A stretch of DNA of 64,000 bases, from NCBI RefSeq assembly GCF_001677475.2, contig NZ_CP015229.1; one strand, given 5' to 3'. The first letter of the stretch is position 1. The number at the start of each line of letters is the position of its first letter. Under the pieces are notes generated by a model that saw only the letters and a list, made by a program, of their open reading frames with translations, was not told the DNA's origin and ran no database searches. Source of the DNA: Escherichia coli (GTDB lineage: Bacteria; Pseudomonadota; Gammaproteobacteria; Enterobacterales; Enterobacteriaceae). The position numbers and the translations under genes were made by a program. This document shows positions 51,925 through 58,266 of this stretch, piece after piece.

Positions 51925-53766
<1,842 letters not shown>

Positions 53767-53844: not shown

Positions 53845-54351
53845 TTATCGCCCACGCACTACCAGCGCCTGGTCCAGCTCGCGATACGCTTCAACCAGTT
53901 TCTCCAGTGAAACGCGACTTAAACCGCTGGGATTTGGCAGCACCCAAATCTGCGTCGAACCAATGGTGAGCGTTTGTTTCCCCCACTGTGCACCGCGCTG
54001 GCTGAATCCCTGTTCATATGCTTGTTTGCCCAGAATCGCCAACGCCTGCGGCTGATAATCTTCAATTTTTTCAATCAGCTTACGCCCGCCTGCGTGTAGT
54101 TCTTGCTTTGAAACTTCATTGGCTTGCACCGTTGGACGGTCTACCAGTTTGGTGACGCCACAACGATAATCCAGCAGATGCTGTGCCTCCTGCGGCTTCA
54201 ACTGACGGTCGGTAAACCCGGCCTGATATATCACCTTCCAGAAGCGATTTGCCGGATGAGCAAAGGGAAAACCAGTCCCGGCGGATGAAAGCCCAGGGTT
54301 GATACCGCAAAACACGACCCGTAACCCTGGAGCCAAAATATCCTCAACCAT
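53845..54351 (-). CDS. mug: G/U mismatch-specific uracil-DNA glycosylase
   Basis: 168 aa; GINPG motif. Confidence 0.9.
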
Positions 54352-54475
54352 ATTTACTCCTTTCTAACATCACCAGGAAAAGTATAACGAATTGAAAATA
54401 CATTGTTTATAAAAACAGCAGGCGCGCGGTAATGGCTGGATTGCGACACGGAGTTACTTTATAATCCGCTACCAT

Positions 54476-54551
54476 GGCCCCTTAGCTCAGTGGTTAGAGC
54501 AGGCGACTCATAATCGCTTGGTCGCTGGTTCAAGTCCAGCAGGGGCCACCA
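54476..54551 (+). tRNA. ileX: tRNA-Ile2 (anticodon CAU, lysidine-modified), ileX-type
   Basis: 76-nt cloverleaf GGCCCCTTAGCTCAGTGGTTAGAGCAGGCGACTCATAATCGC...GGGGCCACCA with CAT anticodon and encoded CCA; differs from both Met tRNAs. Confidence 0.85.
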
Positions 54552-54765
54552 GATTTCAATGAATTACAGATGTATCCAAACTATCTTGCTTTACCAGGAT
54601 ACTTATAGGATACCTCTGAGAAGTATTAACAAGTAAGAATTGGCTCATGCCTACAGAACAGTTGGGTCGTAGCAGCCGTTCACCTGCGAACAAGAAAGTG
54701 CTACGGGTCTGAACTTTTGCCCCCAACTCTCCAAGAGACCGGCAAAAACCCTGACGGAGGTATCA

Positions 54766-54909
54766 ATGGATACTTTAAGAAAGGGCTCAGACCTGCTGTC
54801 TGCACGTGTGATTGCCGTTACAGGTTTAATCGCAGCACTTGGCAATTTAGGTCTATGCCCAATAGCCGTAGTGCTAGTATGTATAGCTTTAGTTATCATG
54901 CTGAAGTAA
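54766..54909 (+). CDS. Candidate 47-aa small membrane peptide (MDTLRKGSDLLSARVIAVTGLIAALGNLGLCPIAVVLVCIALVIMLK)
   Basis: ATG preceded by GGAGG at correct spacing; followed by GGCCCAGCtttcGCTGGGCC hairpin; rare codons (TTA, AGA, CTA, ATA); below the ORF-track size cutoff. Confidence 0.35.
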   Translation: MDTLRKGSDLLSARVIAVTGLIAALGNLGLCPIAVVLVCIALVIMLK

Positions 54910-55652
54910 TGACAGCGTAACAAGCTCGGCCCAGCTTTCGCTGGGCCTCCCATTTCTACCTCCCAAAATCTATTAGAAACAATAAGCCACTAAAGAAAGA
55001 GCTTTTGCTGGCTACAATACTCACATACAAACAATTTTTATTTTTCGCGGGCGTAAAAAAACGATGGGGCTGGCAGTCCGGAAGACGTCAGGGTACAGAG
55101 ATTTGTACCCGCCTCTCCCTGTGCATGAGCACAATAAGTAACCGAAGGCGGAATTCCGCCCTCGGTACTCACATATGAGAAACGATATTTCTTCCACCGA
55201 TACCCTTTATTTGGGTATCGCGAGTAAGCCCCAAAATCTGGGTGTTACTCTTACTACCCAAACTACGGGTAGTTTCCGTAGTTTCATGGTCGAGTTGCAG
55301 ATCTGCAACTCACCCACCAGCCAACGCAATTTTGCGTTATCGGGAATATCAGCAAGTTACCGCCGCAGTCGTTCCGGCTTCTTCCACTGGTAAGTATTTT
55401 TCGCGCTCTCCCTCCGTTGTTGAGAACGGCGACGGTATGCCAGCAACTCAAGGACTCTGATCCGTATGTCGCGCATATCCACGCCGTTAAGCTCGATACC
55501 GTCACGGCGCATCATCTCTGCCACCACACGCGCGTAATTTTCGGCTATCACGCTGTCCGGCTGCGTGGCCTCCTATTTGCTTGATGGTTGTTTGATTCCG
55601 GTAACGCGGCGGATTAATCCCAGCAATTCAGATTCTGTCATAGTGCGCTACG

Positions 55653-55992
55653 TTACTTGTCTTTATTCGGCTGCAACTTATCCGGCACATTTCCGGTAGT
55701 TTCCATCAGGTAATCAGCCAGTATCTGTGGGAGGTTGTCGGCAACTCTGGCACTGGCATTACAGGCTTTAACCACTTCCCTTTTAAGCCCATCCAGCATA
55801 GCGGGGGTAATGTGTGGGAAGCTCCTTTGCATAGTAAGCGGGAGGCTGTCCATGATTGATGAAATCTGACTCGCCAGTTTTGAAAGCGCGTACATGCAAA
55901 ACTCTGTATCAATCACGTCACCGCGATCGCGCTCGTTTTTAAGTTCCTGCGCCTCCGCCTGTGCTGTCAGTAATCTGATCCTGACTCGTAAG
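55653..55992 (-). pseudogene. Nu1-like small terminase subunit, C-terminal fragment (gene split by IS insertion)
   Basis: Translation ...LLTAQAEAQELKNERDRGDVIDTEFCMYALSKLASQISSIMDSLPLTMQRSF... resembles the lambda Nu1 C-terminal half; frame is open up to the IS boundary. Confidence 0.7.
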
Positions 55993-56085
55993 TATGAGAC
56001 GACAATAACTCAGTCCGCCTGGCGCCGATTATTCTGGCCGGTTTTGTAACCTGAGTGTCATTTACATGATCCAACAGGAAATGGC

Positions 56086-57465
56086 GTGACGCTCAATACT
56101 TCTCAGGTCAGTTACTATATGACTCAGCGTAAGAAAGGTATAACTCAGCATATCTCGGCCATGAAGGCTGGTATCTCAGTCCGTTCTGGTCGTCGGATCG
56201 AAAAAGGAGAGTGGGCAAAAAACAGTGTTCGGCACTGGCGCACACGCAAAGATCCTCTGGAAGCTGTGTGGGACAGCATGCTTGTTCCTCTGTTGAAAGA
56301 GAGGCCGGCTCTGACACCAACAACTCTACTGGAGATGCTACAGGATAAATATCCCGGCCAGTACCCCAACAGCCTTCGAAGAACAATGCAACGGCGGGTT
56401 CGCGAATGGAAACTACAGTATGGTACAGAGCAGGAGGTCATGTTCCGCCAGCAACATCAGCCCGGCCTGCGAGGCCTGTCGGACTTTACTGAACTGAAAG
56501 GTGTAGTTGTCACCATCGCCGGTAAGTTGTTGGCGCATAAGTTGTATCACTTCCGTCTGGAATGGAGCCACTGGAGCTGGATGCGGGTTGTTCTGGGTGG
56601 TGAGAGCTTCTCTGCTCTGGCTGAAGGCCTGCAGGAAGCCCTCGGACAACTGGGCGGAGTGCCGGTAGAACATAAAACGGACAGCCTGAGGGCAGCATGG
56701 AAACAACAGGGCGAAGATGGACGCCGCGAGCTGACTGAGCGTTATGCTACTCTCTGTCAGCACTACGGAATGCAGGGCGTACACAATAATGCCGGTCGGG
56801 GCCACGAAAATGGCTCGGTTGAAAGTGCCCACGGACATCTGAAAAGGCGTATCTGTCAGGCGCTGATACTGCGGGGCAGTAACGACTTCAGCACCATAGA
56901 AGAATATCAGGCCTTCATCACTCAGCAGGTTATGCGGCACAACCGTAACAATCAGGATCTGGTCAAGGAAGAACGTCTTCATCTGAAACCGCTGCCGCTT
57001 CGTCGCAGTGCTGACTATGATGAGCTGACTGTGAGGGTTAGTCGCAGCAGTACCATCAATGTGAAGCACGTCGTCTACAGCGTACCTTCCCGGCTTGTAG
57101 GTCAACTGTTACGGGTCAGGTTATGGGACGATCGTCTGAGCTGTTACGTTGGCAGCAGCGAGGTCATGAGCTGCCCTCGCGTCAGACCAGAAAAAGGGAA
57201 GACGCGGGCCCGTCGTATCGACTTCCGACATGTGATCGACAGTCTGGCAAAAAAGCCCGGTGCGTTCTGCCATGCAACGCTGAGAAATGACATCCTGCCG
57301 GACGATGAATGGCGGAGGCTGTGGCGTCGCTTATGTAATCATCTGGAGCCCGATATGGCAGGAAGGCTGATGGTACATGCCGGGAAACGTGGATCTGCAC
57401 CGGCTGATGCGCTTCCTGGGTATAAAAGAAAAGGCGTTGCCGGTAGTCAATGTGATACAGCATAA
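56086..57465 (+). CDS. istA: IS21-family transposase IstA
   Basis: 459-aa ORF (GTG 56086; ATG at 56119 also possible); N-terminal HTH-like region and DDE-type catalytic core typical of IstA. Confidence 0.8.
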   Translation: MTLNTSQVSYYMTQRKKGITQHISAMKAGISVRSGRRIEKGEWAKNSVRHWRTRKDPLEAVWDSMLVPLLKERPALTPTTLLEMLQDKYPGQYPNSLRRTMQRRVREWKLQYGTEQEVMFRQQHQPGLRGLSDFTELKGVVVTIAGKLLAHKLYHFRLEWSHWSWMRVVLGGESFSALAEGLQEALGQLGGVPVEHKTDSLRAAWKQQGEDGRRELTERYATLCQHYGMQGVHNNAGRGHENGSVESAHGHLKRRICQALILRGSNDFSTIEEYQAFITQQVMRHNRNNQDLVKEERLHLKPLPLRRSADYDELTVRVSRSSTINVKHVVYSVPSRLVGQLLRVRLWDDRLSCYVGSSEVMSCPRVRPEKGKTRARRIDFRHVIDSLAKKPGAFCHATLRNDILPDDEWRRLWRRLCNHLEPDMAGRLMVHAGKRGSAPADALPGYKRKGVAGSQCDTA

Positions 57466-57510
57466 CCTGAGCAGTTATGAGCAACTACTGCGTGGCAAGG
57501 GAGGTTCGCA

Positions 57511-58266
57511 GTGAGCAATATCCATCACCTTGAACATAGCCTGCGTAAACTACGCCTGACACGAGTTGGAGCTGAATGGCACGCTCTGGAAAAACGAGCG
57601 CTGGCAGAAGGCTGGACACCATCGCGCTATCTTCTGACGCTATGCAATGAAGAACTCCTGTGGCGCGAGAGTGAAAAACTGCGTCGTTATAAAAAGGAGG
57701 CCCGGTTGCCAGTTGCCAAAACGCTGAGCGAATACGACTTCAGTCAGGTGCCGGAACTGAATGGAGCTCAGTTCCGGCAACTCTGTGAAACGACAGACTG
57801 GGTTGATGCAGGAGAAAACGTTCTGCTGTTCGGAGCCAGCGGGTTGGGGAAAAGCCATCTGGCGGCAGCGATCGTGGATGGCGTAGTAGGTCAGGGCTAC
57901 CGGGCCCGGTTCTACAGCGCAGGAGAGCTGTTGCAGGAACTACGTAAAGCCAGAGCTCAGTTGAAACTGAATGAGCTGCTACTGAAACTGGATCGCTACC
58001 GGGTGATAGTGGTGGATGATCTTGGCTATGTCAAACGCGATAGTGCCGAAACGGGTGTGCTGTTCGAGTTAATAGCGCATCGCTATGAACGTGGGAGCCT
58101 GGTGATAACCAGTAACCATCCGTTCAGCATGTGGGGCAGCATCTTCGTGGATGAGACTATGGCGGTGGCTGCGGCAGACAGGCTGATCCATCACGGATAT
58201 ATGTTCGAACTGAAAGGGGAAAGCTACAGGAAAAAGACAGCGAAGGCAGTAACAAGCGCGACTTGA
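57511..58266 (+). CDS. istB: IS21-family helper ATPase IstB
   Basis: 251 aa; Walker A FGASGLGKSHLA and Walker B VIVVDDLGY; GTG start with GGAGG RBS. Confidence 0.85.
   Translation: MSNIHHLEHSLRKLRLTRVGAEWHALEKRALAEGWTPSRYLLTLCNEELLWRESEKLRRYKKEARLPVAKTLSEYDFSQVPELNGAQFRQLCETTDWVDAGENVLLFGASGLGKSHLAAAIVDGVVGQGYRARFYSAGELLQELRKARAQLKLNELLLKLDRYRVIVVDDLGYVKRDSAETGVLFELIAHRYERGSLVITSNHPFSMWGSIFVDETMAVAAADRLIHHGYMFELKGESYRKKTAKAVTSAT

What the first reader, a model, noticed from the sequence alone, without database searches (positions are those of the whole stretch)
54766..54909. Unannotated 47-aa hydrophobic peptide gene between the tRNA and the island packaging genes
A short ORF with a strong GGAGG RBS, an N-terminal polar segment followed by a single long hydrophobic helix, AT-rich rare codons and a downstream hairpin. 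These features resemble small membrane toxins of type I toxin-antitoxin systems or phage-encoded membrane peptides. It falls below the ORF-track cutoff.
Basis: inference. Interest (0 to 1): 0.45.

Follow-up and report, generated by a model that had tools for sequence, protein, structure and literature searches.

The report
Conserved small membrane-protein gene, folded mRNA
The 47-codon ORF next to the ileX tRNA is a real, unannotated and uncharacterised small membrane-protein gene carried at the chromosome-proximal end of phage satellites in enterobacteria, and its mRNA folds like those of small RNA-controlled membrane toxins, though toxicity and an antitoxin are unproven.

Summary
ORF 54766-54909(+) encodes 47 aa, with a GGAGG 5 nt before the ATG, GC3 of 35%, rare codons and a -16.7 kcal/mol hairpin after the stop.

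It is a real gene. About 49 protein clusters (47-48 aa) occur across Enterobacterales. In 9 variants dN/dS is mostly 0.2-0.4, third-position changes dominate and indels are in frame.

It is not annotated in any of the 28 of 5426 complete E. coli genomes that carry it. It matches nothing in Pfam, NCBIfam, PHROGs, PADLOC or Rfam.

It always lies 100-245 nt downstream of a tRNA(CAT) or tmRNA gene, at the integrase-distal end of different satellites or prophages. Homology stops right after the hairpin.

A ~290-nt RNA module (54659-54947) is conserved with covariation in 20 variants:
- the 5' end pairs with the 3' end;
- the leader pairs with codons 8-10;
- the SD sits in a hairpin;
- the invariant 5' segment can alternatively pair with the hairpin's 5' arm.

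Best reading (about 0.4): a new family of type I-toxin-like membrane peptide held silent by its mRNA fold. No antitoxin RNA, no promoter and no homology to known toxins were found.

The parts
54476..54551 (+). tRNA-Ile2 gene ileX (anticodon CAT). This is the attachment site of the island. Its 3' 46 nt (54506-54551, plus GAT) form the att core, which is repeated at the far end of the island.
   Evidence: ARAGORN; Rfam tRNA, 73 bits; PGAP names it tRNA-Ile; the core repeat is seen at L001 22637-22685.
54596..54613 (+). Tandem AGGATAC-N4-AGGATAC repeats, read as integrase arm-type sites (P' arm). They are not part of the peptide module.
   Evidence: The same tandem pair lies next to int at the other end of the island (L001 22510-22527). 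There are 6 matches against 1.4 expected. The repeats are absent from the ssrA and other-tRNA variants L030 and L034, which still carry the module.
54659..54947 (+). Conserved ~290-nt RNA module (leader, ORF and terminal hairpin). Homology between loci begins at CAGTTGGG and ends right after the hairpin.
   Evidence: Alignment A2 of 20 distinct variants; flanks are unrelated between loci.
54659..54677 (+). Invariant 5' segment CAGTTGGGTCGTAGC(A/G)GCC. GGGT (54664-54667) pairs with GCTC (54924-54927) as helix P1. Alternatively, GTTGGGTCG (54661-54669) pairs with the hairpin's 5' arm (54927-54935).
   Evidence: 18 of 19 positions are invariant in 20 variants. P1 is 100% paired. The alternative helix is 100% paired in 20/20, and 5 of its 9 pairs change only by wobble-compatible transitions. 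The MFE of each variant pairs the 5' end with the 3' end.
54668..54705 (+). Helix P2, a leader stem-loop: CGTAGCA (54668-54674) pairs with TGCTACG (54699-54705); the interior is variable.
   Evidence: 7 bp, including one compensatory pair (A-U in 12 variants, G-C in 8).
54706..54793 (+). P3 domain: leader GGTCTG (54706-54711) pairs with codons 8-10, CAGACC (54788-54793), enclosing the SD and the start codon.
   Evidence: 6 bp, 100% paired. There is a compensatory G-C to A-U change in L030, L034 and L035, where the ORF side is the synonymous GAC to GAT.
54756..54760 (+). Shine-Dalgarno GGAGG, held in a local hairpin with codons 2-4; the AUG sits in the loop.
   Evidence: Sequence. The local hairpin folds at -7.4 kcal/mol. 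SD pairing probability is at least 0.7 in 16 of 20 variants, median 0.90.
54766..54909 (+). Gene for the 47-aa small membrane protein (family motif KGSDLLS-x-R ... G-L-x-P ... L-K/RK).
54781..54800 (+). AAGGGCTCAGACCTGCTGTC, invariant or nearly so at the nucleotide level, synonymous sites included. It contains the P3 and P4 strands. On the minus strand it reads as a -35-like xTGACA.
54794..54917 (+). Helix P4: ORF TGCTGT (54794-54799) pairs with ACAGCG (54912-54917) just after the stop codon, closing the body of the ORF.
   Evidence: 6 bp, 99% paired, with one-sided wobble changes only.
54928..54947 (+). Terminal hairpin GGCCCAGC-TTTC-GCTGGGCC. It marks the boundary with the variable cargo region. 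There is no U tract on the + strand. The minus-strand tail is CTTGTTA here and T5-6 in some variants.
   Evidence: -16.7 kcal/mol. Four pairs carry compensatory changes. It is not called a terminator.

Best explanation
A real gene encodes a 47-aa membrane peptide: a polar N-terminus, then two short hydrophobic helices joined at a conserved G-L-x-P, with basic residues at both ends. It is carried on a compact, self-closing ~290-nt mRNA at the tRNA-proximal end of a phage satellite, opposite the integrase.

Shown: coding selection; RNA helices with covariation; position next to att sites of several kinds; no known family.

Inferred mechanism: the mRNA is kept translationally silent. The SD is locked in a hairpin inside a domain closed by leader-to-codon 8-10 pairing, and the 5' end is tied to the 3' end. 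The invariant 5' segment can instead pair with the 5' arm of the terminal hairpin. That gives a two-state fold which processing or a trigger could flip to allow translation. The peptide would then act on the inner membrane as a type I-toxin-like effector, serving island maintenance or abortive infection.

This would be a new, hok-like-in-logic but unrelated-in-sequence family. Its RNA antitoxin, if there is one, has not been found.
For: - Coding: dN/dS is 0.13-0.6, differences are ordered pos3 > pos1 > pos2, and indels are in frame only. There are 49 clusters in Klebsiella, Citrobacter, Morganella, Raoultella, Erwinia, Salmonella and others.
- RNA: RNAalifold gives 42 pairs, 7 of them compensatory. 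In the five core helices 99.2% of cells are paired, against 29-40% when the partners are slid, and 6 pairs carry double changes.
- The alternative 5'/hairpin-arm helix is paired in 20/20 variants. The G-U pairs it needs only work as + strand RNA.
- The SD is paired in 16 of 20 variants, and the 5' end pairs with the 3' end in every single-sequence MFE. The z-score is -3.6.
- Codons 7-13 are frozen at synonymous sites.
- The module is autonomous: the same module follows ileX, ssrA (L030) and another tRNA (L034), next to different satellites and prophages.
- The peptide resembles type I toxins: under 60 aa, hydrophobic, with a basic C-terminus.
Against: - No homology to Hok, Ldr, Ibs, TisB or other families.
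- No Rfam sRNA.
- The antisense promoter-like site is strong only in one subgroup (TTGACA-18-TAGAGT). In the window it is weak (CAGACA-19-TAAAGT), and no antisense terminator is present.
- There is no complementary stretch of 11 nt or more elsewhere in the island.
- No sigma-70 promoter was found for the mRNA, so its ends are assumed rather than mapped.
- Much of the covariation comes from a few lineages.
- The invariant KGSDLLS-x-R motif could mean a specific protein partner rather than generic membrane damage, or it could be a by-product of the RNA constraint.
- In many loci a cargo gene follows on the same strand, which fits a leader or operon role.
Confidence: 0.4

Rival explanations
1. 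A benign accessory ('moron') small membrane protein of satellites and prophages. Possible roles are superinfection exclusion, modulation of a host or helper-phage membrane protein, or tuning of lysis timing. In this reading the mRNA fold gives stability and low, regulated translation, not toxin silencing.
For: The N-terminal motif KGSDLLS-x-R and the G-L-x-P are nearly invariant, which suggests a specific interaction. No antitoxin was found. The gene sits at the edge of a variable cargo slot that elsewhere holds HEPN/DUF4145, DUF3892 and WYL-type genes. It is retained in a decayed island (L028).
Against: An mRNA architecture this elaborate, with covariation support, a 5'-3' closure and a sequestered SD, is typical of toxic peptides and unusual for ordinary small proteins. 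The invariant N-terminal codons are frozen at synonymous sites, so the motif may reflect RNA rather than protein constraint. There is no hit to any PHROG or PADLOC family.
Confidence: 0.3
2. A translated leader or attenuator. The small ORF and the alternative pairing (5' segment against the hairpin's 5' arm) would control read-through of the hairpin into cargo genes inserted downstream. In this window the cargo has been lost, so the leader would be vestigial.
For: The terminator-like hairpin has a perfectly conserved alternative partner. Same-strand genes start 70-95 nt after the stop in L021, L025 and L028-L032, leaving little room for a promoter.
Against: The peptide sequence is under purifying selection along its whole length, whereas a leader needs only to be translated. 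The hairpin lacks a U tract. About half of the variants, including the window, have no downstream + strand gene. The would-be anti-terminator lies about 270 nt upstream.
Confidence: 0.12
3. The conservation is at the DNA level (attP arm, recombination-factor sites, cos or an origin), and the ORF is a chance by-product. Alternatively, the true gene is the 100-aa antisense ORF 54651-54953 or the overlapping ORF 54717-54920.
For: The module abuts the integrase arm-type repeats. The antisense ORF is open in the window.
Against: The codon-position pattern and in-frame indels point to the 47-aa frame. The module persists with three different att and arm contexts. The helices need G-U pairs, which exist only in + strand RNA. 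The antisense ORF has stops in 13 of 20 variants, and the overlapping frame is also interrupted.
Confidence: 0.05

Closest known systems
hok/sok (Hok_Gef) type I toxin-antitoxin loci of plasmid R1 and enterobacterial chromosomes
   Same: A ~50-aa membrane peptide on a ~300-400-nt mRNA whose 5' end pairs with its 3' end (tac/fbi-like). The SD is sequestered, alternative folds are possible, and the locus is found on mobile elements.
   Different: No sequence similarity (no Hok_Gef hit). The hydrophobic part is C-terminal rather than N-terminal, and there is no conserved periplasmic Cys domain. There is no mok-like overlapping frame. No conserved Sok-like antisense gene could be shown.
Chromosomal E. 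coli type I toxins with long processed leaders (tisB/istR-1, zorO/orzO, shoB/ohsC, dinQ/agrB)
   Same: A small hydrophobic peptide with a basic C-terminus, a >100-nt structured 5' UTR that blocks ribosome access, and nucleotide-level conservation of the pairing segments.
   Different: Those systems have a divergently encoded sRNA with 18-20 nt of complementarity. None was found within the island or in Rfam. There is no protein homology.
Helicobacter pylori aapA1/IsoA1
   Same: The toxin mRNA is locked by a long-distance 5'-3' interaction and by SD-sequestering hairpins.
   Different: Unrelated organism and sequence. IsoA1 is a clear cis-antisense RNA, and no equivalent is shown here.
Accessory or defence cargo hotspots at the ends of P4-like satellites, PICIs and cf-PICIs (from my own knowledge of the field; SatelliteFinder paper PMC10085698 listed, not read)
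   Same: The locus sits at the att-proximal end of satellites, beside a slot whose content varies between elements.
   Different: The peptide module is the constant flank of the slot, not variable cargo. It matches no PADLOC model.

Membership tests
Type I toxin-antitoxin system (general) | Toxin is a small (<60 aa) hydrophobic membrane peptide | tested here: met
   47 aa. The hydrophobic stretch of ~33 residues is predicted as two helices, and basic residues flank it.
Type I toxin-antitoxin system (general) | RNA antitoxin (cis-antisense or nearby sRNA) complementary to the toxin mRNA | tested here: inconclusive
   No Rfam hit. A minus-strand promoter-like site at the translation start scores 10/12 in one subgroup but is weak in the window. 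There is no complementarity of 11 nt or more elsewhere in the island. RNA-seq is needed.
Type I toxin-antitoxin system (general) | Toxin mRNA intrinsically silenced by structure (sequestered SD, long leader) | tested here: met
   Computational only. Helices P1-P4 and the terminal hairpin are supported by covariation, and the SD is paired in 16 of 20 variants. The transcript ends are assumed.
Type I toxin-antitoxin system (general) | Growth arrest or membrane damage on expression | not testable with these tools
   Needs an experiment.
Hok/Sok (Pfam Hok_Gef) | Hok_Gef domain | tested here: not met
   0 Pfam families at E<=10.
Hok/Sok (Pfam Hok_Gef) | Overlapping mok-type reading frame coupling translation | tested here: not met
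   The other + frames carry stops in most variants.
Hok/Sok (Pfam Hok_Gef) | 5'-3' fold-back pairing (tac/fbi) with alternative conformers | tested here: met
   An analogous feature, not a homologous one. P1 and the alternative 9-bp helix are both 100% paired in 20 variants.
Ldr, Ibs, TisB, ShoB, Zor, DinQ toxin families | Sequence membership | tested here: not met
   No Pfam or NCBIfam hit. The profile search returns only 47-53-aa uncharacterised relatives.
Leader-peptide transcription attenuator | Terminator and anti-terminator alternatives upstream of a same-strand gene, with the peptide sequence itself dispensable | tested here: not met
   An alternative pairing exists. However, the hairpin has no U tract, the window has no downstream + strand gene, and the peptide is under purifying selection.
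Phage holin or lysis peptide | Sits in a lysis cassette and belongs to a holin family | tested here: not met
   No PHROG hit, no tblastn match in 50,697 phage records, and no lysis genes nearby.

The most novel reading that the evidence does not exclude
This is a previously unrecognised family of fold-back-regulated membrane-toxin cassettes. They are specific to the attachment-site edge of phage satellites (cf-PICI-like and lambda-capsid-type) and some prophages. Their expression is wired to the element's state. When the element is integrated, the cassette lies just downstream of a strong stable-RNA promoter (ileX or ssrA), and in the E. coli variant the replacement tRNA terminator is missing. 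On excision the cassette is cut off from that promoter. The cassette would act without a classical antisense antitoxin, through a 5'-3' RNA switch, to stabilise the island or to abort helper or competitor phage infection.
Probability: 0.15. Interest if true: 0.75.

Novelty: new variant of a known kind. Interest (0 to 1): 0.55.

Why it matters
Small proteins are systematically missed by annotation. This one is absent from the RefSeq annotation of every E. coli genome that carries it, yet it is conserved across Enterobacterales, including common Klebsiella lineages, at the edge of phage satellites that move between species. If it is a toxin-like effector, it adds a maintenance or abortive-infection function to cf-PICI-type satellites. 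It would also add a new, sequence-unrelated example of hok-style mRNA fold-back control, and one that can be tested with compensatory mutants. It also marks the constant flank of a cargo slot that elsewhere holds HEPN/DUF4145 and other defence-like genes. That makes it useful for locating such cargo.

Tried and rejected
- Family searches of the peptide in Pfam, NCBIfam, PHROGs and PADLOC gave no hits.
- Rfam at E<=1 on 54300-56200 found only the tRNA.
- tblastn found nothing in 50,697 phage records. Among plasmids it gave one weak hit, in a 728-kb Salmonella record.
- A sigma-70 promoter scan found no + strand promoter between the tRNA and the ORF. The -10-like TATTAA box belongs to a motif (AGGATACC-N-AGAAGTATT) that recurs on the other att arm, so it is more likely a recombination site.
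- An antisense promoter is not robustly conserved.
- A search of the island for a trans sRNA found only chance 11-12-mers.
- The antisense 100-aa ORF and the overlapping 67-aa ORF are both interrupted in other variants.
- A link between ATA codons and ileX is not conserved across variants (codon table).
- The idea that IMG/VR contigs L013, L032 and L033 show an excised attP form was dropped. L031 shows the same junction as a tandem prophage-plus-satellite insertion.
- Literature searches (cf-PICI; type I toxin with phage satellite; ileX island; the peptide motif) found nothing on this gene.
- A genome-contig scan with a 35-nt degenerate pattern found only one species representative, Citrobacter sp. 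NCU1.

Full report
**Context.** The window is E. coli chromosome: rpoD (51925-53766), mug (53845-54351, minus strand) and the tRNA-Ile2 gene ileX (54476-54551).
- An island begins at the 3' end of the tRNA. In strain KC-Dl-1, which is 100% identical over 54552-55200, it runs for about 10.6 kb to a P4-type integrase and an att repeat of the tRNA's last 46 nt.
- The island encodes lambda-type gpE capsid and gpD decoration proteins, a D5-type primase and an Icd-like protein, so it is a phage satellite. In the window it also carries a ~2.6-kb IS21 insertion.

**Observation.**
- The ORF is 54766-54909 and encodes 47 aa. GGAGG lies at 54756-54760, 5 nt before the ATG.
- The N-terminus is polar and a ~33-residue hydrophobic stretch follows.
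- GC3 is 35% against 61% in rpoD. Codons AGA, CTA and ATA are present.
- A -16.7 kcal/mol hairpin lies at 54928-54947.
- The hairpin has no U tract and is not scored as a terminator.
- No PGAP annotation covers the ORF in any of the 28 of 5426 complete E. coli genomes that carry this DNA. All 28 copies are about 100% identical.

**Is it a gene?** Yes.
- A sequence search found five homologues at 72-100% identity. A profile search found 49 clusters of 47-48 aa in Klebsiella, Citrobacter, Morganella, Raoultella, Erwinia, Salmonella and Pseudocitrobacter, all labelled hypothetical. An exhaustive HMMER search added only three more distant relatives of 48-53 aa.
- In nine DNA variants the pairwise dN/dS is 0.13-0.63, mostly 0.2-0.4. 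Differences follow pos3 > pos1 > pos2, and the only indels are whole codons.
- The antisense 100-aa ORF and the overlapping + frame are interrupted in most variants.
- AlphaFold2 with 29 homologues predicts helix 3-28, a break at the conserved G-L-x-P, and helix 32-46, with pLDDT 73. Basic residues sit at both ends, so a re-entrant helical hairpin is possible. That last point is inference.

**Where it sits.**
- In every locus examined the gene lies 100-245 nt downstream of a stable-RNA gene, in the same orientation. That gene is usually ileX after rpoD-mug, once ssrA (Erwinia, L030) and once another tRNA(CAT) (L034).
- It is at the end of the element opposite the integrase.
- The elements differ. 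Some are cf-PICI-like satellites with TerL, portal and HNH. Others are protease-capsid satellites, the lambda-capsid satellite of the window, a P2-like prophage, and a decayed remnant.
- Homology starts at CAGTTGGGTCGTAGC (54659) and stops immediately after the hairpin.
- The AGGATAC-N4-AGGATAC repeats upstream (54596-54613) recur beside int at the other end, so they are integrase arm sites and not part of the module. They are absent from the ssrA variant.
- DNA beyond the hairpin is a variable cargo slot. It often holds a ~261-aa HEPN/DUF4145-like gene on the same strand, which is absent from the window.
- The peptide is not found in 50,697 phage records.

**RNA architecture.** Twenty distinct variants were aligned (A2).
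- RNAalifold and explicit pair counting give five helices.
  - P1: 5' GGGU with GCYC just before the hairpin.
  - P2: the leader stem CGUAGCR/YGCUACG, with A-U in 12 variants and G-C in 8.
  - P3: leader GGUCUG with codons 8-10, CAGACC. It carries a G-C to A-U double change whose ORF side is a synonymous GAC to GAT.
  - P4: ORF UGCUGU with ACAGCG just after the stop.
  - The terminal hairpin, in which four pairs have compensatory changes.
- Overall 99.2% of cells are paired, against 29-40% when the partners are slid by 1-3 columns.
- The 19-nt 5' segment is invariant at 18 positions. Codons 7-13 are frozen at synonymous sites, although dS exceeds 1 elsewhere in the ORF.
- The invariant GUUGGGUCG can also pair with the 5' arm of the hairpin in all 20 variants. 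The arm varies (CGGCCCAGC, CGGCCCGGC, CGACCCGGC, CGGCCUAAC) only in ways that keep both partners paired through G-U wobble. That pattern is what is expected of a two-state RNA, and it only works on the + strand transcript.
- Single-sequence folds reproduce the 5'-3' closure in every variant. They place the SD in a hairpin with codons 2-4 (pairing probability at least 0.7 in 16 of 20) and the AUG in the loop.
- Caveats: the transcript ends are assumed from where conservation begins and ends, and the variants represent only a handful of independent lineages.

**What could not be found.**
- There is no sigma-70 promoter for the mRNA.
- Most variants carry a hairpin plus U tract just after the tRNA or tmRNA gene, replacing the native terminator that integration displaces to attR. 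The window variant does not (-1.3 kcal/mol). Read-through from the ileX promoter is therefore possible here, but it cannot be the general rule.
- On the minus strand the frozen ORF segment reads as a -35 (TTGACA, CTGACA, or CAGACA in the window). One subgroup has TTGACA-18-TAGAGT aimed at the translation start, a Sok-like arrangement. In the window it is only CAGACA-19-TAAAGT, and no antisense terminator is evident.
- No complementary segment exists elsewhere in the island, and there is no Rfam family.

**Interpretation.** A peptide this small and hydrophobic, on an mRNA this elaborately closed, most resembles a type I toxin held silent by its own fold. In logic it is like hok, tisB, zorO or aapA1. 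The att-edge location on mobile elements fits a role in maintenance or abortive infection. I give this about 0.4.
- It is not a member of any known toxin family, it has no mok-like frame, and the defining RNA antitoxin is unproven.
- A benign accessory membrane protein gets about 0.3. A translated leader for downstream cargo gets about 0.12.
- A purely DNA-level explanation is largely excluded.

**Novelty.** This is an uncharacterised and mostly unannotated protein family together with an undescribed conserved RNA structure. Four literature searches found nothing on it. I rate it a new variant of a known kind: a small membrane peptide under mRNA-fold control, on a mobile element.

Noticed in passing
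window 55035-55200: A 166-nt segment is shared at 88-96% identity with about 390 further E. coli genomes that lack the peptide module. In strain CREC-629 it lies at the end of a related capsid/decoration/terS satellite next to clpS. It contains a minus-strand terminator-like hairpin (55166-55141). It may be a cos/pac region or a 3' UTR of the satellite family.
   Followed up: partly
window 56086-58266: IS21-family element: istA is 459 aa, and istB is 251 aa with an IstB_IS21 hit at E 9e-62. It accounts for a ~2.6-kb insertion relative to the otherwise identical island of strain KC-Dl-1.
   Followed up: partly
L021 8221-9003; L028-L032, L034 (not in window): In many loci a ~261-aa gene follows the peptide gene on the same strand, 70-90 nt after its stop. 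UniRef calls relatives HEPN or DUF4145 domain proteins. It has 2310 homologues, reaching Acinetobacter, Marinobacter and Sulfuricurvum, so it is far more widespread than the peptide. It is probably independent defence-like cargo.
   Followed up: partly
L001 22690-22725 versus window 54552-54595: Integration displaces the native ileX terminator (GGCTGACG...CGTCAGCC followed by a T run) to the attR end. Most module variants supply a replacement hairpin plus U tract right after the tRNA, but the E. coli variant in the window has essentially none (-1.3 kcal/mol). ileX transcription may therefore read into the island here.
   Followed up: partly
window 54596-54629 and L001 22510-22545: The motif AGGATAC-N4-AGGATACC-N-AGAAGTATT occurs on both att arms. 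These are probably binding sites for the P4-type integrase or accessory factors. The integrase is 76% identical between E. coli and Klebsiella islands that carry peptides only 53% identical.
   Followed up: partly
L031 5741-9001; L013, L032, L033: Tandem occupancy of the ileX site: a 186/P2-like prophage (int, CI, AIPR gene), then a half-tRNA junction, then a satellite carrying the peptide module. The IMG/VR 'viral' contigs with a half tRNA upstream of the module probably reflect this arrangement rather than an excised attP.
   Followed up: partly
window ORF 54766-54909 and variants L002, L005: ATA codons are read only by tRNA-Ile2, the product of the attachment-site gene. They make up 2 of 5 Ile codons in the window, 5-6 codons in L002 and L005, and none in the Klebsiella variants. 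The pattern is not conserved, so it is probably compositional.
   Followed up: yes
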